A DNA stretch of 39,305 bases, from sequence record MT682707.1. One strand, written 5' to 3'. Origin of the DNA: Escherichia phage vB_EcoP_SP7. A program made the translations under genes and the position numbers. Of the stretch, positions 7,544-39,302 are shown piece after piece; position 1 is the first letter of the stretch; each line of letters starts with the position of its first letter. The notes below the pieces were generated by a model. It was not told the origin of the DNA and did not search any database. It worked only from the letters and a program-made list of their open reading frames with translations.

Positions 7544-8242
7544 ATGGCTAAAGAGCAACTGAAGACTTTCACCACTCCGGTAGCTGGTATCGTTGAGCCT
7601 TACGCATGGCTAAACAAAGCAGACACCAAGTTCAACGAGCGTGGTGAACACAAAGTCAACCTGACATTCGACCTGAACAACACGAAGGTCCGTAAGATGA
7701 TTGATGTCTTACAGAAGATTCATGACGATGCCTATGCGAAAGCACTCGCAGACCACGAGAAGAACCCACCTCAGGTTCAGCGTGGTAAGAAGCCTATTGA
7801 ACCACGAGAAGGCGACATGCCGTGGATTGAGAATGGTGACGGTACTGTTACCCTGAAGTTTAAGTGCTTCGCGTCTTACCTGAAGGATGGTAAGTCAGAG
7901 CCTATCGTATTACGGTTCTACGACACCGATGCTAAACTCATCCGTGACGTCCCGAATATTGGCGCTGGGTCTAAGCTGAAGGTCAAGTTCAAAGTCCTGC
8001 CGTTCAAGTGGAACGCTGCGACTGGTGCAAGCGTTAAGCTCCAGCTTGAGTCCTGCCTTCTGGTAGAACTGAAGGAGTGGAAAGGTGATGGTGCTGGTGG
8101 TGATGGTGGCTGGGGTGATGATGAAGACCTTGGTACTGGCTACAAAGCGTCAACAGATGGTGACTTCGGGTCTGATGACTTCGGTGATGATGGCTCCGAA
8201 GGTGGTGATGACTCCAGCTCTGGTGGCGATTACGACTTCTAA
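7544..8242 (+). CDS. Single-stranded DNA-binding protein (gene 2.5), 232 aa
   Basis: Same length as T7 gp2.5; conserved NPP..RGKKP, GDMP, ENGDGT, KLKVKFKV..KWNAATGASVKLQLES and the acidic C-terminal tail ending in F. Confidence 0.95.
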   Translation: MAKEQLKTFTTPVAGIVEPYAWLNKADTKFNERGEHKVNLTFDLNNTKVRKMIDVLQKIHDDAYAKALADHEKNPPQVQRGKKPIEPREGDMPWIENGDGTVTLKFKCFASYLKDGKSEPIVLRFYDTDAKLIRDVPNIGAGSKLKVKFKVLPFKWNAATGASVKLQLESCLLVELKEWKGDGAGGDGGWGDDEDLGTGYKASTDGDFGSDDFGDDGSEGGDDSSSGGDYDF

Positions 8243-9733: not shown

Positions 9734-9949
9734 ATGATTAAACTTATTGAATTTCTTGGTCGTCTGGTGGTGCGTGGCTATCGTCGTGCTGCGGTTATGG
9801 AACGAAAGGTAGCAGAGAAGACCGCTGACGGTGCGGCTGATGCTGCTGCTCTAGCTGACAAGCTGACAATCCAGTCACTGGAAGCTGGCATGAAGGCTCG
9901 TCAGGCTGATACCAAAGCTGACCAGTTGGCGCATTTCTTCAAAGCCTAA
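9734..9949 (+). CDS. Hypothetical protein (71 aa), Ala-rich
   Basis: ORF with AAAGGAG RBS between lysozyme and the gene 4 promoter. Confidence 0.45.
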   Translation: MIKLIEFLGRLVVRGYRRAAVMERKVAEKTADGAADAAALADKLTIQSLEAGMKARQADTKADQLAHFFKA

Positions 9950-9967
9950 ACTATCACCTTAGGGATG
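9945..9967 (+). promoter_or_regulatory. Divergent phage-RNAP promoter-like site upstream of gene 4
   Basis: CCTAAACTATCACCTTAGGGATG; the upstream specificity region is intact, with two substitutions at -4 and -3. Confidence 0.45.
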
Positions 9968-10014: not shown

Positions 10015-11894
<1,880 letters not shown>

Positions 11895-11898
11895 GTCT

Positions 11899-11940
11899 AG
11901 ACTCAAGGTCATTCACAGCGAGTGGCCTTTATGATTAGAC
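11899..11940 (+). promoter_or_regulatory. RNase III processing site upstream of the DNA polymerase gene
   Basis: AGACTCAAGGTCATTCACAGCGAGTGGCCTTTATGATTAGAC; same conserved element as at 4609 and 34856. Confidence 0.7.
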
Positions 11941-11957
11941 TAAACGGAGGATTAACC

Positions 11958-14129
11958 ATGTTTGACCTTAAGAGTATCTGGGGTTCTGACATCGAGACAA
12001 ACGGTCTCCTTGATACAGTCTCCCAGTTTCACTGTGGGGTACTGATTAACGCCGAGTCGAATGAGACCCTTAAGTATGGGGTAGCTCCGATGGTCGGTAT
12101 CATCGGTGGCTTCAAAGAGTATGTTCATAAAGTGGAAGAGATTGCCGCATCACCTGATGGTATGCTGGTATTCCACAACGGTATCAACTATGACGTCCCT
12201 GCTATTGACAAGCTGAAACGTCTGTACCTTGGGAAACGCTTTAACTTCCCGAAACACAAGATGATTGATACATTGGTGTTGGGACGCTTGATGTATCCCA
12301 ACATTAAGTTCTCAGACATGGGCGCGGTGAAAGCGGGTCGTCTACCACCTAAGATGATGGGACGTCAGTCTCTTGAGGCTTGGGGCTATCGTCTTGGTGA
12401 GATGAAAGGTGAGTACAAACACGATTACGTTGCCAAGTGCAAGGCTGAAGGTATCGAATATAAGGCTGGGGACGAATGGTTGTTCCCATCTCAGGAGATG
12501 CTGGACTATAACGTTCAAGACGTTGTGGTCACACTGGAGTTGTTCAAGAAGTTCCTGACTGACAAGTATTACTTCCAGTCTGAACAGTTCGCTTTCGACC
12601 AGATTTATGCGTTGCGTCTGGAACATGATGCTGCGTGGACCTGTGCGAAGATGGAACGTAATGGCTATCCAATGAACACCGAGATGGTCGAAGGCTTATA
12701 TCGTGAACTCACCGTCAAACGTGCAGAGCTGCTGGACAAGCTGCGCTCGACTTTCGGTAGCTGGTACGCACCAAAGGGAGGCAAAGAGTTCTTCAAGCAC
12801 CCCAGGACAGGCAAGGACCTTCCGAAGTATCCGCGAGTCGTGTATCCTAAAATAGGTGGCATCTTTAAGAAGCCGAAGAACAAAGCTCAACGCTTAGGTC
12901 TTGAACCTTGTGAGCGCGATACGCGAGACACGATGGAGGGAGCACCGTTCACGCCTATAACTTACGTTGAGTTTAATCCGGGAAGCGGAGACCACTTAGC
13001 GAAAGTCCTGATGGAGCGTGGATGGGAGCCTGTAGACTTCACTGACACCGGGAAACCTGTAGTCGATGACGAGACGTTAGAACACGTTAAGTTACAAGAT
13101 GAAGAGGCTCAGGCTTGCGTAGAGCTGGTCCGCGAGTATCTGGTAGTCCAGAAGCGCATCGGTCAGGCGGCTGAAGGTAAGAACGCATGGTTGAAACTTG
13201 TAGGTCCAGACGGACGTATGCACGGTTCAATCAACCCATGTGGTGCAGTAACCGGACGTGCGACCCATAGTACACCAAATATGGCTCAGGTCCCGGCTAA
13301 CGGTGCCCCATACGGTGAGACTTGCCGTGGTGCTTTCGGTGCAGCGTGGAACAAGACTAACGGTGAGCCAGACCCTTGGCTTCAGGTTGGTGTGGATGCT
13401 TCAGGTCTTGAGCTTCGCTGTCTGGGGAACAGAGCGGCTCCGTTTGACGGTGGTGAATACGCCAAGACTGTGGTCGAAGGTGACATCCACTGGGCCAACG
13501 CAGTAAACGCTGGGTTAGCACCTAACGTCCAACGCGATAAGTCTAACCACGACCATGATGCTTTCCGTAATAACGCTAAGACGTTCATCTATGCGTTCCT
13601 GTATGGTGCCGGGGCCGCGAAGATTGGACTGATAGTTGGAGGTGGTAAGAAGGAAGGTTCAGCTCTCATGAAGAAATTCATTGAGGGTACACCAGCCATA
13701 AAGGACCTCAGGGAAGCTGTGCAGAACACGCTCATCTCAGAGTCGAAGTGGGTAGATGGTGAGAACATCGTGAAGTGGAAACGTCGCTGGCTGAAAGGTC
13801 TGGATGGTCGCCGCATTCACATCCGGTCGCCACACTCAGCACTTAACGCATTACTTCAGGGCGATGGTGCGGTAGTCTGCAAGCACTGGATGGTACTTAC
13901 TGAGAAGAAACTTGAAGAGGCTGGTTACGGTAACGGATGGGACGGTGATTTTGCGCTAATGGCTTGGATTCACGATGAATTGCAGATAGCGTGTCGTACT
14001 CAGGAGATAGCAGAAGATGTCGTCCGTATTGCTCAAGAGGCGATGCGTGAGGTCGGACGCTTCTATAACTTCAAGTGTGAACTTGATACGGAGGGTAAGA
14101 TTGGACCAACGTGGAAAGAGTGTCATTGA
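11958..14129 (+). CDS. DNA polymerase (gene 5), family A
   Basis: 3'-5' exonuclease motif DIETNGL and polymerase motifs (VTGRATHS, RDKSNHDHDAFRNNAKTFIYAFLYGAG, WIHDELQ) match recalled T7 DNAP. ATG 11958 has a GGAGG RBS; the track's 11922 start overlaps the RNase III site. Confidence 0.97.
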   Translation: MFDLKSIWGSDIETNGLLDTVSQFHCGVLINAESNETLKYGVAPMVGIIGGFKEYVHKVEEIAASPDGMLVFHNGINYDVPAIDKLKRLYLGKRFNFPKHKMIDTLVLGRLMYPNIKFSDMGAVKAGRLPPKMMGRQSLEAWGYRLGEMKGEYKHDYVAKCKAEGIEYKAGDEWLFPSQEMLDYNVQDVVVTLELFKKFLTDKYYFQSEQFAFDQIYALRLEHDAAWTCAKMERNGYPMNTEMVEGLYRELTVKRAELLDKLRSTFGSWYAPKGGKEFFKHPRTGKDLPKYPRVVYPKIGGIFKKPKNKAQRLGLEPCERDTRDTMEGAPFTPITYVEFNPGSGDHLAKVLMERGWEPVDFTDTGKPVVDDETLEHVKLQDEEAQACVELVREYLVVQKRIGQAAEGKNAWLKLVGPDGRMHGSINPCGAVTGRATHSTPNMAQVPANGAPYGETCRGAFGAAWNKTNGEPDPWLQVGVDASGLELRCLGNRAAPFDGGEYAKTVVEGDIHWANAVNAGLAPNVQRDKSNHDHDAFRNNAKTFIYAFLYGAGAAKIGLIVGGGKKEGSALMKKFIEGTPAIKDLREAVQNTLISESKWVDGENIVKWKRRWLKGLDGRRIHIRSPHSALNALLQGDGAVVCKHWMVLTEKKLEEAGYGNGWDGDFALMAWIHDELQIACRTQEIAEDVVRIAQEAMREVGRFYNFKCELDTEGKIGPTWKECH

Positions 14130-14171
14130 CCCTCGAACCCAGACCCTACGCTTCCACACCATGCCTACCGG

Positions 14172-14441
14172 ATGTATCGTCTGCGTGTCCACAAGAGGAA
14201 CCAAGATGGGTACTTCCGGTACTCCATGGGAAGCTACAGGAAGGGTAACAAGTTCGCCTTCATGTTCCACCGATGGGTGTGGGAGCAGAAGCGTGGACCT
14301 ATACCAGATGGCTATGAGATAGACCATTTGTGCTTGAACCGTGGGTGCTGCAACATAGAGCACCTACAGTGTATTCCAAAGCGCGAACACGTCATTAAGA
14401 CGAACCGCGAGCGCAAACTTGTTAAGAAGGAGTGTCACTAA
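14172..14441 (+). CDS. HNH homing endonuclease
   Basis: HNH motif region GYEIDHLCLNRGCCNIEHLQCIPKREH; located immediately after gene 5, where T7 has no such gene. Confidence 0.8.
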   Translation: MYRLRVHKRNQDGYFRYSMGSYRKGNKFAFMFHRWVWEQKRGPIPDGYEIDHLCLNRGCCNIEHLQCIPKREHVIKTNRERKLVKKECH

Positions 14442-14629
14442 TGGGTCATTATGACAGCGCATACGAAGAGTTAGCTGAAGAAACACGCAGGCGTGAAGAG
14501 CTACGTCAGTCGCGGTGCGAACATCCAGATTGGGTACTTGTCTACTGCACGCAGGATGGCAAGCCCAAAGTAACTCAGTGCAGACTGTGTGGAAAGACCA
14601 ATCACATTGAATCCCAAGGAGAAATCTAA
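14441..14629 (+). CDS. Hypothetical small Cys-containing protein (62 aa), possible zinc ribbon
   Basis: AAGGAG RBS then ATG 14441; cysteines CEH...YC...CRLCGK. Confidence 0.45.
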   Translation: MGHYDSAYEELAEETRRREELRQSRCEHPDWVLVYCTQDGKPKVTQCRLCGKTNHIESQGEI

Positions 14630-14901
14630 TGGCTATTACTAAACGCCTTACCTGTAAGTTTGACATGAAGATTATCTTTACGTCTGAGGACGTGGAGTCA
14701 TACGCTCTTAATATGGTGGAGCTTACCAAGGGTTATGTCTCCGGTGAGAAACAGGATGGCATGACACGGAAGCTGGTAGAGACTGCTATAGAGCATGGGG
14801 TCGAAGCTGCCATTGAGCTGCACCTGAAGTCTATTCTGTCGTCCAATCTGAAAGACGCGCTGCAAGAGGTCTACAACATCAGCACGAGGTTCAAGCAATG
14901 A
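14629..14901 (+). CDS. gp5.5-like protein (candidate H-NS-binding host takeover factor)
   Basis: N-terminus MAITKR... and position resemble recalled T7 gp5.5; similarity is weak. Confidence 0.45.
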   Translation: MAITKRLTCKFDMKIIFTSEDVESYALNMVELTKGYVSGEKQDGMTRKLVETAIEHGVEAAIELHLKSILSSNLKDALQEVYNISTRFKQ

Positions 14902-15107
14902 GTGAATACTTACGGGTCCTTGCGGCCCTTAAGTCCTGCCCGAAGACCTTCCAGTCCAACTATGTGCGCAACAACGCTGCACTTGTGGCTGAGGCTGCGA
15001 GTCGTGGACATCTAAGCTGCCTGTCTATGGATGGGCGTAACAACGGTGCGTGGGAAATTACTGCTGCTGGCACCAAGTTCCTAAATCAACATGGAGGCTG
15101 TCTATGA
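14898..15107 (+). CDS. gp5.7-like protein (candidate host sigma-S/RNAP inhibitor)
   Basis: MSEYLRVLAALKSCPKTFQSNYVRNNAALVAEAASRGH...GAWEITAAGTKFL strongly resembles my recollection of T7 gp5.7. Confidence 0.6.
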   Translation: MSEYLRVLAALKSCPKTFQSNYVRNNAALVAEAASRGHLSCLSMDGRNNGAWEITAAGTKFLNQHGGCL

Positions 15108-15382
15108 ATCAAGACGTATCAGGACGCGAACTTAAGGTAGGACAGAAGGTTGCTTTCTGTCTGGCTGGAAAATCCTACGCAATGCGTATAGGCGAAGTCG
15201 TCCGGGTAATGCCTAAGACGGTAGCCATCAAGCATAAGACATATATTCGCTGGAAAGGAGCTGCCGAGGAAGTCGAGACGGTACGTGCATTCTCTTCAGT
15301 GTGTATCGTTGAGGAACCGAAAGCTTCATTGATGCCAGCTACGGTCGCTATGGCTACGGGAGGTCTGGACGATGGGTTCTGA
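15104..15382 (+). CDS. Hypothetical protein (92 aa), gene 5.9 position but not gp5.9-like
   Basis: GGAGG RBS then ATG 15104; no similarity to recalled T7 gp5.9. Confidence 0.45.
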   Translation: MNQDVSGRELKVGQKVAFCLAGKSYAMRIGEVVRVMPKTVAIKHKTYIRWKGAAEEVETVRAFSSVCIVEEPKASLMPATVAMATGGLDDGF

Positions 15383-16241
15383 GAAGAAGATAGCTCTGGT
15401 GTTGGATGGTGACTATCTGGTCTTCTCTTCTATGGCTGCTGCCGAGGACGAGACAGACTGGGGTGATGACATCTGGACCATTATCTGCGACCATGAGAAG
15501 GCTCGTCGTATCCTTGAGAACACCATCGCTGAAATCGTTAAGAAGCGTAAGGCGTGGAAAGACGCTAAGATTGTGATGTGCTTTACTGACGATAACAACT
15601 GGCGTAAGGATGTTCTGCCTACTTATAAGGCCAACCGTAAAGGTTCTCGCAAGCCTGTAGGTTACAAGAAGTTCGTAGCCGAGGTGATGGCTGACCCACG
15701 GTTCAACAGTTTCCTGCGTCCTACGCTTGAGGGTGATGACTGTATGGGTATCATCGGGACCCGACCTCAGATTGTAGGATGTGACCATGCGGTGCTGGTG
15801 TCCTGTGACAAGGACTTCAAGACAATCCCGAACTGTGAGTTCTTCTGGTTAACAACTGGTGAAATCCTGAGTCATACGACTGCCGAGGCAGACTACTGGC
15901 ACATGGAGCAGACCATCAAGGGTGACACTACAGATGGCTACGGTGGTATTCCGGGGATGGGTGAGGACACAACTCGTGCGTTCCTTGACGAGCCGTACTA
16001 CTTCGTGCAGGAGAGCCGTGAGCTTAAGACTGGTAAGAATAAAGGCCAGATTAAGACTGAGTGGAAGAAGTATCCGAAGCGTGAAGACATGACGCTGTGG
16101 GACTGCATGGTGACTCTGGCTGCTAAAGCTGGGATGACCGAGGAGGAACTTCTGGTCCAAGCTCAGGTAGCTCGCATTTGTCGAGCCTCCGACTATGACC
16201 CTAAGTCCAAGGAGGTCATCCTGTGGACACCATCCATGTAA
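15372..16241 (+). CDS. 5'-3' exonuclease (gene 6)
   Basis: LVLDGDYLVF, CDHEKARRILE, YKANRK..KPVGY, SCDKDFKTIPNC, TIKGDTTDGYGGIPG, KAGMTEEEL match recalled T7 gp6. Confidence 0.95.
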   Translation: MGSEKKIALVLDGDYLVFSSMAAAEDETDWGDDIWTIICDHEKARRILENTIAEIVKKRKAWKDAKIVMCFTDDNNWRKDVLPTYKANRKGSRKPVGYKKFVAEVMADPRFNSFLRPTLEGDDCMGIIGTRPQIVGCDHAVLVSCDKDFKTIPNCEFFWLTTGEILSHTTAEADYWHMEQTIKGDTTDGYGGIPGMGEDTTRAFLDEPYYFVQESRELKTGKNKGQIKTEWKKYPKREDMTLWDCMVTLAAKAGMTEEELLVQAQVARICRASDYDPKSKEVILWTPSM

Positions 16242-16367
16242 TTTACTGGGCCGGACTTCTGGCCATTTACTGCATGTACAAGTGGTTTGGGTCAAACAAC
16301 CGTCCTAAACACTGAGTCTAACCGATAGTCATATCCTATCAATCCAACAGTCATCCATAGGTGAAAC

Positions 16368-16390
16368 ACTAAACTATCACTATAGGGACT
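16368..16390 (+). promoter_or_regulatory. Phage-RNAP promoter (phi6.5 position)
   Basis: CACTAAACTATCACTATAGGGACT; +1 at 16385. Confidence 0.85.
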
Positions 16391-38960: not shown

Positions 38961-39302
38961 ATGGAACGTAACGCTAACGCATACTATGAGCTGCTGGCTG
39001 CAACTGTTGAAGCATTTAACGAGAGCATTCAGCATGACGAAATAGCTGAAGGTGACGACTACAGCGATGCGCTGCACGAAGTCGTAGAAGGTATGGTTCC
39101 GCATTATTACCACGAGATTTTCACGGTGATGGCTGCTGATGGTATTGACCACGAGTTCGAAGACTCTGGGCTGATGCCTGAGACCAAGGACGTAACGCGT
39201 ATACTACAAGCCCGAATCTATGAGGCGCTTTATAACGACGTGTCTAATAGCTCGGATGTGGTCTGGTTTGAGGATGAAGAGAACGACGAAGAGGACTGCT
39301 AG
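38961..39302 (+). CDS. ocr: Ocr-like DNA mimic, anti-restriction protein (gene 0.3)
   Basis: [43 protein letters not shown] closely matches recalled T7 Ocr; acidic C-terminus; first early gene downstream of the host-type promoters. Confidence 0.9.

What the first reader, a model, noticed from the sequence alone, without database searches (positions are those of the whole stretch)
14441..15382. Host-takeover cluster after the polymerase with unassigned members
gp5.5-like and gp5.7-like ORFs (host nucleoid/RNAP regulators in T7) are flanked by a 62-aa Cys-containing ORF (possible zinc ribbon) and a 92-aa ORF at the gp5.9 position that lacks similarity to the T7 RecBCD inhibitor. The unassigned members may target different host factors.
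Basis: partly seen in the sequence, partly recalled or inferred. Interest (0 to 1): 0.4.

Follow-up and report, generated by a model that had tools for sequence, protein, structure and literature searches.

The report
Swappable accessory genes flanking gp5.5/gp5.7
In this T7-like coliphage, the two known host-shutoff genes (5.5 and 5.7) sit between two interchangeable gene slots that hold small phage-only proteins of unknown function: a zinc-ribbon-like mini-protein, and a small beta-barrel protein that is unrelated to the RecBCD inhibitor gp5.9. This is an ordinary case of phage gene mosaicism, and the targets of both proteins are untested.

Summary
The window is the complete genome of Escherichia phage vB_EcoP_SP7, a Kayfunavirus. 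All four ORFs exist exactly as described, and their start and stop codons overlap in a chain that also includes an upstream HNH gene and the gene 6 exonuclease.

- **gp5.7** is a clear orthologue: 77% identical to T7, with all six residues needed for activity kept.
- **gp5.5** is a divergent member of its family.
- **The 62-aa ORF** belongs to a rare phage-only family (PHROG 27296). It has invariant C26-x-H28...C47-x2-C50 and an invariant N-terminal HYD..Y motif. It is predicted as a helix plus a three-stranded sheet, with no fold match.
- **The 92-aa ORF** is a DUF7205 (PF23835, PHROG 2251) five-stranded SH3/Tudor/KOW-like barrel. It carries a disordered 20-aa tail acquired by recombination from the 3' end of an unrelated 149-aa gene.

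The 92-aa ORF fails every gp5.9 criterion tested: sequence, profile, charge and fold. A survey of about 90 related loci shows that both flanks of 5.5/5.7 are hypervariable cassette slots. DUF7205 is the commonest occupant of the slot before gene 6, and it can occur together with gp5.9-like proteins.

The idea that these proteins bind host targets is plausible but untested. This is a new member of known uncharacterised families, of low to moderate interest.

The parts
14172..14441 (+). HNH homing-endonuclease gene (89 aa) in the slot after the polymerase. It is 5'-truncated or frameshifted relative to intact 108-111 aa relatives; the lost N-terminal remnant reads in another frame at 14143-14196.
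   Evidence: Pfam HNH_3 E 8e-20. PHROG endonuclease families. Frameshift shown by tblastn with the intact relative from L022.
14441..14629 (+). 62-aa ORF, PHROG_27296 family. It has an invariant N-terminal H3-Y4-D5..Y8 motif, a predicted helix at residues 5-25, and a three-stranded sheet carrying invariant C26-x-H28...C47-x2-C50, a putative CHCC zinc site.
14629..14901 (+). gp5.5-like protein (90 aa). It is a divergent allele of the T7 gene 5.5 family, whose T7 member inhibits H-NS.
   Evidence: PHROG_1452 E 1.2e-18. Pfam PF11247 17.7 bits, below the 25-bit cutoff. 25% identity to T7 gp5.5 over the full length. Sole member of its 90% cluster. Best phage match 86.7%.
14898..15107 (+). gp5.7 orthologue (69 aa). 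In T7 this is a winged-helix protein that inhibits host RNA polymerase.
   Evidence: 77% identity to T7 gp5.7, E 7e-43. F18, Q19, R24, S35, L42 and W52, which are required in T7 (PMC5569994), are all present. The identical sequence occurs on 803 contigs.
15104..15319 (+). DUF7205 (PF23835, PHROG_2251) domain of the 92-aa ORF: a five-stranded SH3/Tudor/KOW-like beta-barrel (strands within residues 15-70). It is 94-96% identical to the free-standing 72-aa gene of EcoDS1 and Peacock.
15308..15316 (+). Recombination junction (microhomology GTTGAGGA) between the EcoDS1-type DUF7205 gene and the 3' end of the TM1/EP1-type 149-aa gene.
   Evidence: DNA alignment of the window, EcoDS1, Peacock, TM1 and EP1. 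Protein alignment.
15317..15382 (+). C-terminal tail PKASLMPATVAMATGGLDDGF plus the stop codon. It is predicted to be disordered. It contains the gene 6 Shine-Dalgarno sequence (GGAGG, 15359-15363) and overlaps the gene 6 start.
   Evidence: pLDDT < 50 for residues 75-92. The last 17 residues (LMPATVAMATGGLDDGF) are identical to the C-terminus of the unrelated 149-aa protein of phage TM1; phage EP1 differs at one residue. Similar tails occur on other, unrelated slot proteins.
15372..16241 (+). Gene 6 5'-3' exonuclease, the right-hand boundary of the variable slot.
   Evidence: Pfam 5_3_exonuc_N. PHROG_107 E 2e-80.
9949..9965 (+). Nearest upstream phage-RNAP promoter. No phage promoter lies inside the cluster; the next one is at 16372-16388.
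   Evidence: Pattern search with the EcoDS1 phi6.5 promoter core: 11 matches against 0.07 expected. No sigma-70 or terminator signal above background, and no Rfam match above chance.

Best explanation
The region is the gene 5.3-5.9 segment of a T7-like phage (Kayfunavirus vB_EcoP_SP7). It is transcribed in the middle (class II) phase from upstream phage promoters, and six ORFs from the HNH gene through gene 6 are linked by overlapping stop and start codons.

Two genes form the stable core: a divergent gp5.5 and a highly conserved gp5.7. Either side of this core is a hypervariable cassette slot.

Slot A (polymerase to 5.5) holds two things here:
- a decaying HNH homing endonuclease gene;
- a 62-aa mini-protein made of an N-terminal helix and a probable Cys-His-Cys-Cys zinc ribbon.

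Slot B (5.7 to gene 6, the T7 5.9 position) holds a DUF7205 SH3/Tudor/KOW-like beta-barrel protein. Its last 20 residues were acquired by recombination, at a GTTGAGGA microhomology, from the 3' end of an unrelated 149-aa slot-B gene. That segment carries the ribosome-binding site of gene 6.

Shown: ORF reality, family membership, predicted folds, the chimeric junction, slot hypervariability, and the absence of any gp5.9 relationship.

Inferred: both small proteins have no catalytic motifs and are too small for enzymes, so they most likely act as stoichiometric binders of a host or phage macromolecule. They would be dispensable, niche-specific accessory factors (host takeover or anti-defence). 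The DUF7205 protein is not a DNA-mimic RecBCD inhibitor.
For: - **Identity of the genome:** exact protein look-up gives vB_EcoP_SP7, 39,305 bp. The nearest relative in the phage collection is SEA1f, at 95.4% identity.
- **Core genes:**
- **Coupling and promoters:**
- **Slot B is variable:** the gap between 5.7 and gene 6 ranges from 3 to 602 nt across about 90 loci anchored on gp5.7. Occupants fall into at least 6 unrelated families, and about 20 loci have no gene there. DUF7205 is the commonest occupant, in 28 loci with several divergent sequence types and lengths.
- **Slot A is variable:** it can be empty or hold an HNH gene, a T7 5.3-type gene, a 53-56 aa family, or others.
- **Chimera:** residues 1-71 match 72-aa proteins only, and residues 69-92 match the ends of other genes only. 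The exact 92-aa sequence occurs on one contig among about 15 billion proteins.
- **Fold of the 92-aa protein:**
- **Not gp5.9:**. Its pI is 9.0 against 4.1 for gp5.9. gp5.9 is an acidic parallel coiled-coil DNA mimic (PMC9836394).
- **Co-occurrence:** DUF7205 occurs together with a gp5.9-like acidic ORF in L085.
- **Phage-only distribution:** the DUF7205 family lies among DNA-metabolism genes in Kayfunavirus, Drulisvirus, Warsawvirus and Pakpunavirus. No close relative was found in 185,579 bacterial and archaeal species genomes.
- **62-aa family:**
Against: - No experiment or characterised homologue exists for either family, so 'binder of a host or phage macromolecule' rests only on size, fold class and context.
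- The 62-aa model has no fold match, and zinc binding is inferred from four invariant ligand-type residues only.
- Net charge in the DUF7205 family ranges from -2.5 to +4.6, which points neither to nucleic-acid binding nor to DNA mimicry.
- The local Pfam copy did not return PF23835 for these proteins. The DUF7205 label therefore rests on precomputed hits for relatives plus PHROG_2251.
- The slot survey is biased to close gp5.7 relatives (78-100% identity).
Confidence: 0.6

Rival explanations
1. The 92-aa DUF7205 protein is a functional analogue of gp5.9. It would neutralise RecBCD (or MukBEF) by a mechanism other than DNA mimicry, as P22 Abc2 does, and so fill the same position in the genome.
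For: It occupies the same position as T7 gene 5.9, immediately before gene 6. The window has no gp5.9-like protein and no other small, strongly acidic protein except Ocr. RecBCD inhibitors have diverse folds (PMC9836394).
Against: DUF7205 occurs together with a gp5.9-like acidic ORF in the same slot in L085. About 20 of roughly 90 related loci have an empty slot. The family also occurs in Pseudomonas myoviruses and Klebsiella Drulisviruses at other positions. Its charge is near neutral to basic and its fold is a beta-barrel.
Confidence: 0.1
2. DUF7205 is a nucleic-acid-binding accessory factor, similar to a KOW domain or the Tudor-like C-terminal domain of ProQ. It would act on phage transcripts or on replication and recombination intermediates rather than on a host protein.
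For: The best structural neighbours include Spt5/NusG KOW and Tudor domains. 7 of 26 family members give weak hits to Pfam Phage_ProQ_C_like, best E 0.015. The window protein is basic, pI 9.0. K38 and R61 are invariant. The gene always lies among nucleases, ligase and nucleotide-metabolism genes.
Against: All Pfam hits are below threshold. Family net charge ranges from -2.5 to +4.6 with a median pI of 7.8. SH3-like barrels bind proteins just as often as nucleic acids.
Confidence: 0.22
3. One or both unassigned ORFs are not real genes, but chance ORFs or decaying remnants between conserved genes.
For: The 62-aa ORF is not annotated in SEA1f. Neither the 62-aa product nor the 65-aa product from the GTG start has an NCBI accession in the protein collection. 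The 62-aa ORF is absent from all 80 IMG/VR loci surveyed. Differences between close relatives are too few to test selection. The neighbouring HNH gene is visibly decaying.
Against: Both ORFs match PHROG families strongly. The 62-aa family keeps 12 invariant positions (11 besides the start Met) at 35-54% identity across different phage types, and keeps its position in L013. DUF7205 shows mostly third-position, synonymous change. Both ORFs have a Shine-Dalgarno sequence and precise stop/start overlaps. Both AF2 models are confident.
Confidence: 0.04
4. The shared C-terminal tail (L-x-x-A-T-V/L-A-M-A-x-G-G plus an acidic tip ending in Phe) is a portable docking peptide that brings different cargo domains to the phage replisome or to gene 6 exonuclease. 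It would imitate the acidic, Phe-terminated tails of gp2.5 and gp4.
For: Tails of this kind end at least four unrelated kinds of slot-B N-terminal region (DUF7205 of several types, the 149-aa family and the 111-aa family). In the A-T-x-A-M-A core, the Ala, Thr and Ala codons differ between lineages only at synonymous third positions. In this phage gp2.5 ends ...GDYDF and gp4 ends ...EDTDF, while the 92-aa ORF ends ...LDDGF. The role of those tails in T7 comes from my own knowledge of the T7 replisome literature, not from a tool result.
Against: The tail overlaps the ribosome-binding site and the first codons of gene 6, which alone can explain conservation of GG and the acidic tip. Other tail variants end in RDE, SDE, DER or DDGC, without a terminal Phe. 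Over the whole tail, pN/pS is not clearly below 1. Many DUF7205 genes have no tail at all. AF2 gives no structure for it.
Confidence: 0.1

Closest known systems
T7 gp5.7 (winged-helix inhibitor of host RNA polymerase; PMC5569994)
   Same: The 69-aa ORF at 14898-15107 is 77% identical over the full length. It has the same length and the same position after 5.5, and all six residues whose alanine substitution abolishes activity in T7 are present.
   Different: R60 is K and R64 is Q. In T7 these are residues of non-specific DNA contact. No functional data exist for this phage.
T7 gp5.5 (H-NS inhibitor; Pfam PF11247, PHROG_1452)
   Same: Same position, and similar length (90 aa against 99). It aligns over the full length and gives a strong PHROG match.
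   Different: Only 25% identical to T7 gp5.5. It scores below the Pfam gathering threshold. Its C-terminus is shortened, and it is a rare allele: the sole member of its 90% cluster. H-NS binding is inferred only.
T7 gp5.9 (RecBCD/MukBEF inhibitor, acidic parallel coiled-coil DNA mimic; PMC9836394)
   Same: Only the position in the genome, directly upstream of and overlapping gene 6.
   Different: No similarity at sequence or profile level. pI 9.0 against 4.1. Predicted beta-barrel rather than a coiled coil. It can occur together with gp5.9-like ORFs.
DUF7205 (PF23835) / PHROG_2251, e.g. the EcoDS1 'unknown product' YP_002003763 and Peacock gp032
   Same: Residues 1-71 are 94-97% identical to these 72-aa proteins, at the same position.
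   Different: This copy carries a 20-aa tail recombined from a different gene. That exact chimera was seen only in this genome. The family has no known function.
Tudor / KOW / PWWP SH3-like beta-barrels (e.g. Spt5 and NusG KOW, SMN and TDRD3 Tudor)
   Different: Sequence identity of 6-19%. No Pfam assignment to any of these families. This is a similarity of fold class only, not evidence of shared function.
Small C-x-C/H ... C-x2-C zinc ribbons such as ribosomal protein bL31
   Same: The ligand spacing in the 62-aa ORF, C-x-H-(18)-C-x2-C, on a small three-stranded sheet. A profile search of solved structures gives bL31 and the aIF2-beta zinc ribbon as the best, though non-significant, hits at E 0.18-0.57.

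Membership tests
T7 gp5.7 | Full-length sequence similarity to T7 gp5.7 | tested here: met
   77% identity over 69/69 residues, E 7e-43. PHROG_1334 E 7e-39.
T7 gp5.7 | Residues required for activity in T7 (F18, Q19, R24, S35, L42, W52) | tested here: met
   All six are identical in the alignment. The residue list comes from PMC5569994.
T7 gp5.7 | Binds and inhibits host RNA polymerase | not testable with these tools
   Needs biochemistry.
T7 gp5.5 (PF11247 Phage_T7_55) | Pfam gathering score reached | tested here: not met
   17.7 bits against a 25-bit cutoff, E 0.0041, although positions 1-90 of the 99-position profile are matched.
T7 gp5.5 (PF11247 Phage_T7_55) | Membership of the wider gp5.5-like family by profile and by position in the genome | tested here: met
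   PHROG_1452 E 1.2e-18. tblastn links it to 346 phage records, many of them annotated as H-NS binding proteins, at the same position. BLASTP to T7 gp5.5 gives 25% identity, E 1e-6.
T7 gp5.5 (PF11247 Phage_T7_55) | Binds H-NS | not testable with these tools
   Needs a pull-down or a genetic assay.
T7 gp5.9 RecBCD inhibitor | Sequence or profile similarity to gp5.9 | tested here: not met
   No alignment at E <= 100. Best tblastn E in the whole window is 0.22. hhalign probability 0.3%.
T7 gp5.9 RecBCD inhibitor | Small and highly acidic (pI about 4), as expected of a DNA mimic | tested here: not met
   The 92-aa ORF has pI 9.0 and charge +2.6. T7 gp5.9 has pI 4.1 and charge -8.5. gp5.9 properties are from PMC9836394.
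T7 gp5.9 RecBCD inhibitor | Alpha-helical parallel coiled-coil dimer | tested here: not met
   The AF2 model is a five-stranded beta-barrel with a disordered tail.
T7 gp5.9 RecBCD inhibitor | Inhibits RecBCD | not testable with these tools
   Needs an enzyme assay or phage genetics.
DUF7205 (PF23835) / PHROG_2251 | Significant profile match over the domain | tested here: met
   PHROG_2251 E 8.6e-21, positions 2-71 of 74. Relatives that are 80-92% identical carry precomputed PF23835 = DUF7205. The local Pfam copy did not return PF23835.
DUF7205 (PF23835) / PHROG_2251 | Family-invariant residues (G7, G13, K38, R61; nearly invariant D4, G30, V40) | tested here: met
   All are present in the window protein in the 26-sequence alignment.
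PHROG_27296 (62-aa family) | Profile match and family-invariant residues (H3, Y4, D5, Y8, Q23, C26, H28, W31, G40, C47, C50) | tested here: met
   E 2.6e-17, positions 1-59 of 61. Invariant columns.
Zinc ribbon (generic) | Four conserved metal ligands arranged as two knuckles on a small beta-sheet | tested here: inconclusive
Zinc ribbon (generic) | Binds zinc | not testable with these tools
   Needs metal analysis.

The most novel reading that the evidence does not exclude
The roughly 20-aa tail (L-x-x-A-T-V/L-A-M-A-x-G-G plus an acidic tip, here ending in Phe) is not just read-through of the gene 6 ribosome-binding region. On this reading it is a portable docking peptide that phage recombination attaches to unrelated cargo domains, including DUF7205 and two very acidic DNA-mimic-like families. 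It would deliver them to the replisome or to gene 6 exonuclease by imitating the acidic, Phe-terminated C-termini of gp2.5 and gp4.
Probability: 0.08. Interest if true: 0.6.

Novelty: new member of a known kind. Interest (0 to 1): 0.25.

Why it matters
This corrects a tempting annotation by position: in Kayfunaviruses, the gene at the T7 5.9 position is usually not a RecBCD inhibitor.

It also defines two recombination-prone slots flanking gp5.5/gp5.7. T7-like phages exchange small accessory genes there, including several very acidic DNA-mimic candidates in relatives.

DUF7205 is widespread. It occurs in Escherichia, Salmonella, Enterobacter and Klebsiella T7-likes, in Drulisviruses, and in Pseudomonas Pakpunaviruses used in phage therapy, and it has no characterised member. 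The 62-aa CHCC protein is not annotated in SEA1f and has no NCBI accession for this genome in the protein collection.

Both are tractable candidates for screens of host takeover or anti-defence functions. Nothing here is mechanistically surprising yet.

Tried and rejected
- **Homology of the 92-aa ORF to gp5.9.** Tested by BLASTP, by tblastn over the whole window, and by profile-profile comparison. None found.
- **Homology of the 62-aa ORF to T7 gp5.3.** None.
- **Family libraries for both ORFs.** NCBIfam and PADLOC gave nothing. Pfam gave only sub-threshold chance-level hits (CusF_Ec, zf-Sec23_Sec24).
- **PDB sequence-profile searches.** Nothing significant.
- **Fold searches.** The barrel gives only generic Tudor/KOW matches, and only uncharacterised viral proteins. 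The 62-aa model gives nothing. The afdb50 library was unavailable.
- **Long repetitive proteins** (up to 4384 aa) that hit the 62-aa query. They have no informative Pfam content and were treated as repeat or low-complexity artefacts.
- **A promoter or RNA element hidden in the conserved tail DNA.** There is no phage promoter match in the cluster, no Rfam hit above chance, and no terminator.
- **Selection test on the 62-aa ORF among close relatives.** Too few differences.
- **Selection test on the tail.** Inconclusive: pN/pS is about 0.1-2, and only the A-T-x-A-M-A core shows purely synonymous change.
- **Search of bacterial genomes for DUF7205.** The alignment was too divergent to use as a query. 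A single-protein scan found no relative.
- **Literature searches** for PF23835, DUF7205 and Kayfunavirus + gp5.9. No papers.
- **The 65-aa product from the GTG start.** It is not in the protein collection, so I could not establish how GenBank annotates this ORF in SP7.
Full report
**What the window is.** An exact-sequence look-up places four of the five local proteins in Escherichia phage vB_EcoP_SP7, on a contig of 39,305 bp, which is the length of the window. The window is therefore the complete genome of a published ETEC swine phage (genome announcement PMC7471389). It belongs to the genus Kayfunavirus (Studiervirinae, T7-like). The nearest record in the phage collection is Klebsiella phage SEA1f, at 95.4% identity over 96% of the first 25 kb.

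**Anatomy.** The gene order is as follows.

| Feature | Coordinates | Size |
|---|---|---|
| Primase-helicase (gp4) | 10018-11718 | 566 aa |
| DNA polymerase (gp5) | 11922-14129 | 735 aa |
| HNH endonuclease | 14172-14441 | 89 aa |
| 62-aa ORF | 14441-14629 | 62 aa |
| gp5.5-like | 14629-14901 | 90 aa |
| gp5.7 | 14898-15107 | 69 aa |
| 92-aa ORF | 15104-15382 | 92 aa |
| Gene 6 exonuclease | 15372-16241 | 289 aa |

Every junction from the HNH gene to gene 6 is a stop/start overlap (TAATG, TAATG, ATGA, ATGA, and an 11-nt overlap). Each start has an AAGGAG, GAGG or GGAGG motif 6-8 nt upstream. A search with the EcoDS1 phage-promoter core finds 11 sites in the genome against 0.07 expected. The nearest are at 9949 and 16372, and none lies inside the cluster. 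The region has no sigma-70 or terminator signal above background and no Rfam match above chance. The cluster is therefore one translationally coupled block inside a class II transcript.

**Checking the observation.**
- **gp5.7.** It is 77% identical to T7 gp5.7 (E 7e-43). It keeps F18, Q19, R24, S35, L42 and W52, the residues whose alanine substitution abolishes T7 gp5.7 activity (PMC5569994). The identical sequence occurs on 803 contigs.
- **gp5.5.** It belongs to the family but is divergent. PHROG_1452 gives E 1.2e-18. It is 25% identical to T7 gp5.5 and aligns over the full length. It scores below the Pfam gathering threshold, 17.7 against 25 bits. This allele is the only member of its 90% cluster. 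The gp5.5 family as a whole is highly variable, at 22-87% identity.
- **62-aa ORF.** It has four cysteines.
- **92-aa ORF.** It has no similarity to T7 gp5.9 by BLASTP. No gp5.9-like sequence exists anywhere in the window (best E 0.22). A profile-profile comparison between the two families gives a probability of 0.3%.

**The 92-aa ORF.** It is a chimera.
- Residues 1-71 are 94-97% identical to free-standing 72-aa proteins at the same position in EcoDS1, Peacock, GA2A, SEA1f and others.
- The last 17 residues (LMPATVAMATGGLDDGF) are identical to the C-terminus of an unrelated, very acidic 149-aa protein that occupies the same position in TM1. EP1 differs at one residue. The few residues before them (E-P-K-A-S) are similar but not identical.
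- The DNA alignment puts the crossover at a GTTGAGGA microhomology, 15308-15316.
- No phage record matches the whole 92-aa sequence at high identity. The exact sequence is on one contig only, among about 15 billion proteins.

The N-terminal part belongs to PHROG_2251 (E 8.6e-21). Its relatives carry the precomputed Pfam label PF23835, which is DUF7205. The local Pfam copy did not return that model.

The window protein is basic (pI 9.0), whereas T7 gp5.9 has a pI of 4.1. gp5.9 is a highly acidic parallel coiled-coil DNA mimic (PMC9836394). Across the DUF7205 family, net charge ranges from -2.5 to +4.6. The family is therefore neither a DNA mimic nor a consistently basic nucleic-acid binder.

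The family is restricted to phages. It occurs in:
- Kayfunaviruses, between 5.7 and gene 6;
- Drulisviruses, between the exonuclease and endonuclease VII genes;
- a Warsawvirus, after the ligase gene;
- Pseudomonas Pakpunaviruses, near the dCMP deaminase and ligase genes.

No close relative was found in one genome from each of 185,579 bacterial and archaeal species. Codon changes against a diverged copy are mostly synonymous, 16 against 6.

**The 62-aa ORF.** PHROG_27296 matches at E 2.6e-17. tblastn finds it in only two phage records, SEA1f (where it is not annotated) and TH20. An exhaustive phmmer search of 1.84 billion representative proteins finds only a handful of 55-62 aa proteins, plus repetitive artefacts.

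A 54%-identical member sits at the same position, between the polymerase and gp5.5, in another T7-like contig. More distant members lie among small early ORFs of larger phages.

**Context: two hypervariable slots.** I fetched 80 IMG/VR loci anchored on gp5.7 and added the reference loci.

The distance from gp5.7 to gene 6 (slot B) ranges from 3 to 602 nt. Its occupants are as follows.

| Slot B occupant | Loci |
|---|---|
| DUF7205, in several divergent sequence types, with or without a tail | 28 |
| A 58-78 aa basic family | 16 |
| A 127-150 aa family, charge -16 | 11 |
| A 94-121 aa family, charge -14 | 8 |
| Several gp5.9-like acidic proteins (T7 type and a GVDNW-motif type) | about 8 |
| A 42-aa zinc ribbon | 2 |
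| Nothing | about 20 |

One locus, L085, carries DUF7205 together with a gp5.9-like acidic ORF, so the two are not alternatives.

The distance from the polymerase to gp5.5 (slot A) ranges from 3 to 754 nt. It can hold HNH genes, the T7 5.3 type, a 53-56 aa family and others. The 62-aa ORF was absent from all 80 IMG/VR loci. The HNH gene and the 62-aa ORF occur independently of each other.

**The tail.** Related tails end at least four unrelated kinds of slot-B N-terminal region. Examples are LMPATVAMATGGLDDGF, LLGATLAMAKGGLRDE, LLAATVPAMSKAKAVSDE and PLPATLAMAKVGQHDER. The tail DNA contains the gene 6 Shine-Dalgarno sequence (the two glycines are encoded by GGAGG) and overlaps the first codons of gene 6. 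That alone explains part of the conservation, and it makes this segment the natural right-hand boundary for cassette exchange.

In the A-T-x-A-M-A core, the lineages differ only at synonymous third positions. Over the whole tail, however, pN/pS is not clearly below 1. Selection on the peptide itself is therefore unresolved. In this phage gp2.5 ends ...GDYDF and gp4 ends ...EDTDF, and the 92-aa ORF ends ...LDDGF. The resemblance to the polymerase-binding tails of the T7 replisome comes from my own knowledge of that literature and is a lead only. Other tail variants lack the terminal Phe.

**How it most likely works.**
- *Shown:* a conserved gp5.5/gp5.7 core flanked by two slots whose contents are exchanged by recombination at short conserved junctions.
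- *Inferred from T7:* gp5.7 restrains host RNA polymerase, and gp5.5 counteracts H-NS.
- *Inferred, at lower confidence:* the two unassigned proteins are small and lack catalytic motifs, so they most likely act by binding a host or phage macromolecule. They are dispensable and niche-specific. The DUF7205 protein does not work as a gp5.9-type DNA mimic.

Rivals:
- DUF7205 as a RecBCD antagonist that does not use DNA mimicry: about 0.1.
- DUF7205 as a nucleic-acid-binding KOW- or Tudor-like factor: about 0.2.
- The tail as a docking peptide: about 0.1.
- The ORFs are not real genes: about 0.04.

**Novelty and verdict.** Both proteins belong to already catalogued but uncharacterised families, in a deposited genome where the 92-aa ORF is annotated as hypothetical. 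The chimeric tail, and the fact that the 62-aa ORF is not annotated in SEA1f and has no NCBI accession for this genome in the protein collection, are small additions. No paper mentions DUF7205 or PF23835. This is a new member of a known kind. Interest is low to moderate, mainly as a list of tractable candidates and as a caution against assigning gp5.9 function by position.

Noticed in passing
window 14143-14441: The HNH endonuclease gene is frameshifted relative to intact 108-111 aa relatives. The first 18 residues (TLRFHTMPTGCIVCVSTR, which include a C-x2-C pair) read in frame +1 at 14143-14196, and the rest reads in frame +3 from 14190. The 89-aa ORF starts at an internal ATG. This is either a decaying homing endonuclease or a sequencing error.
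   Followed up: partly
window 38961-39302: A very acidic 113-aa ORF (pI 4.05, charge -27) contains the Ocr (gp0.3) motif VPHYY...EFEDSGLMP...ILQARIYE; the motif was recognised from memory of the T7 Ocr sequence, not by a search. It lies at the right end of the record, so the deposited genome is permuted relative to the T7 convention. It is the only strongly acidic small protein in the window.
   Followed up: partly
window 7544-8242, 10018-11718 and 15104-15382: gp2.5 ends ...GGDYDF, gp4 ends ...WEDTDF, and the 92-aa ORF ends ...GGLDDGF. All three have an acidic C-terminus ending in Phe.
   Followed up: partly
window 1048, 4591, 6494, 7486, 9949, 16372, 19196, 20195, 24743, 32019, 37424 (+ strand): Eleven phage-RNAP promoter-like sites match AACTATCACTATAGGGA with 3 or fewer mismatches, against 0.07 expected by chance.
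   Followed up: partly
window 14629-14901 versus 14898-15107: There is a strong contrast in evolutionary rate between neighbouring genes. This gp5.5 allele is unique at the 90% clustering level (best phage match 86.7%, many relatives below 45%), while the adjacent gp5.7 sequence is found identical on 803 contigs.
   Followed up: partly
related loci L002, L003, L025, L027, L054, L092, L013 (slot between gp5.7 and gene 6): Relatives carry several unrelated, extremely acidic slot-B proteins: a 149-aa family (charge -16), a 111-aa family (charge -14), and 54-66 aa GVDNW-motif proteins (charge -14 to -16). These look like DNA-mimic candidates. The L092 ORF joins the N-terminal motif of T7 gp5.9 (REAWNDMQ.YI..LE) to the GVDNW motif, which links the two acidic types.
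   Followed up: partly
locus L026 2707-3042; proteins P0050 and P0054: Some EcoDS1-type and ST57-type DUF7205 genes carry a different tail followed by a Cys/His-rich extension (for example ...CQACQENDDRYGHECGKEA). This is another 3'-end recombinant of the same domain.
   Followed up: no
window 16223-16315: A 30-aa hydrophobic ORF (MDTIHVIYWAGLLAIYCMYKWFGSNNRPKH) overlaps the end of gene 6, at the position of T7 gene 6.3. EcoDS1 annotates a 30-aa ORF there.
   Followed up: no
window 14607-14639: The sequence just upstream of the gp5.5 start reads, in frame +3, LNPKEKSNGYY. That matches the C-terminal residues (LIKKEKTNGYY) of intact HNH genes that abut gp5.5 directly in other phages. It suggests the 62-aa cassette sits between duplicated junctions containing ribosome-binding sites.
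   Followed up: no
tool behaviour (versus 25, 35, 63): The precomputed Pfam table assigns PF23835 (DUF7205) to close relatives, but the local Pfam-A hmmscan never returned that model for them or for the window protein.
   Followed up: no
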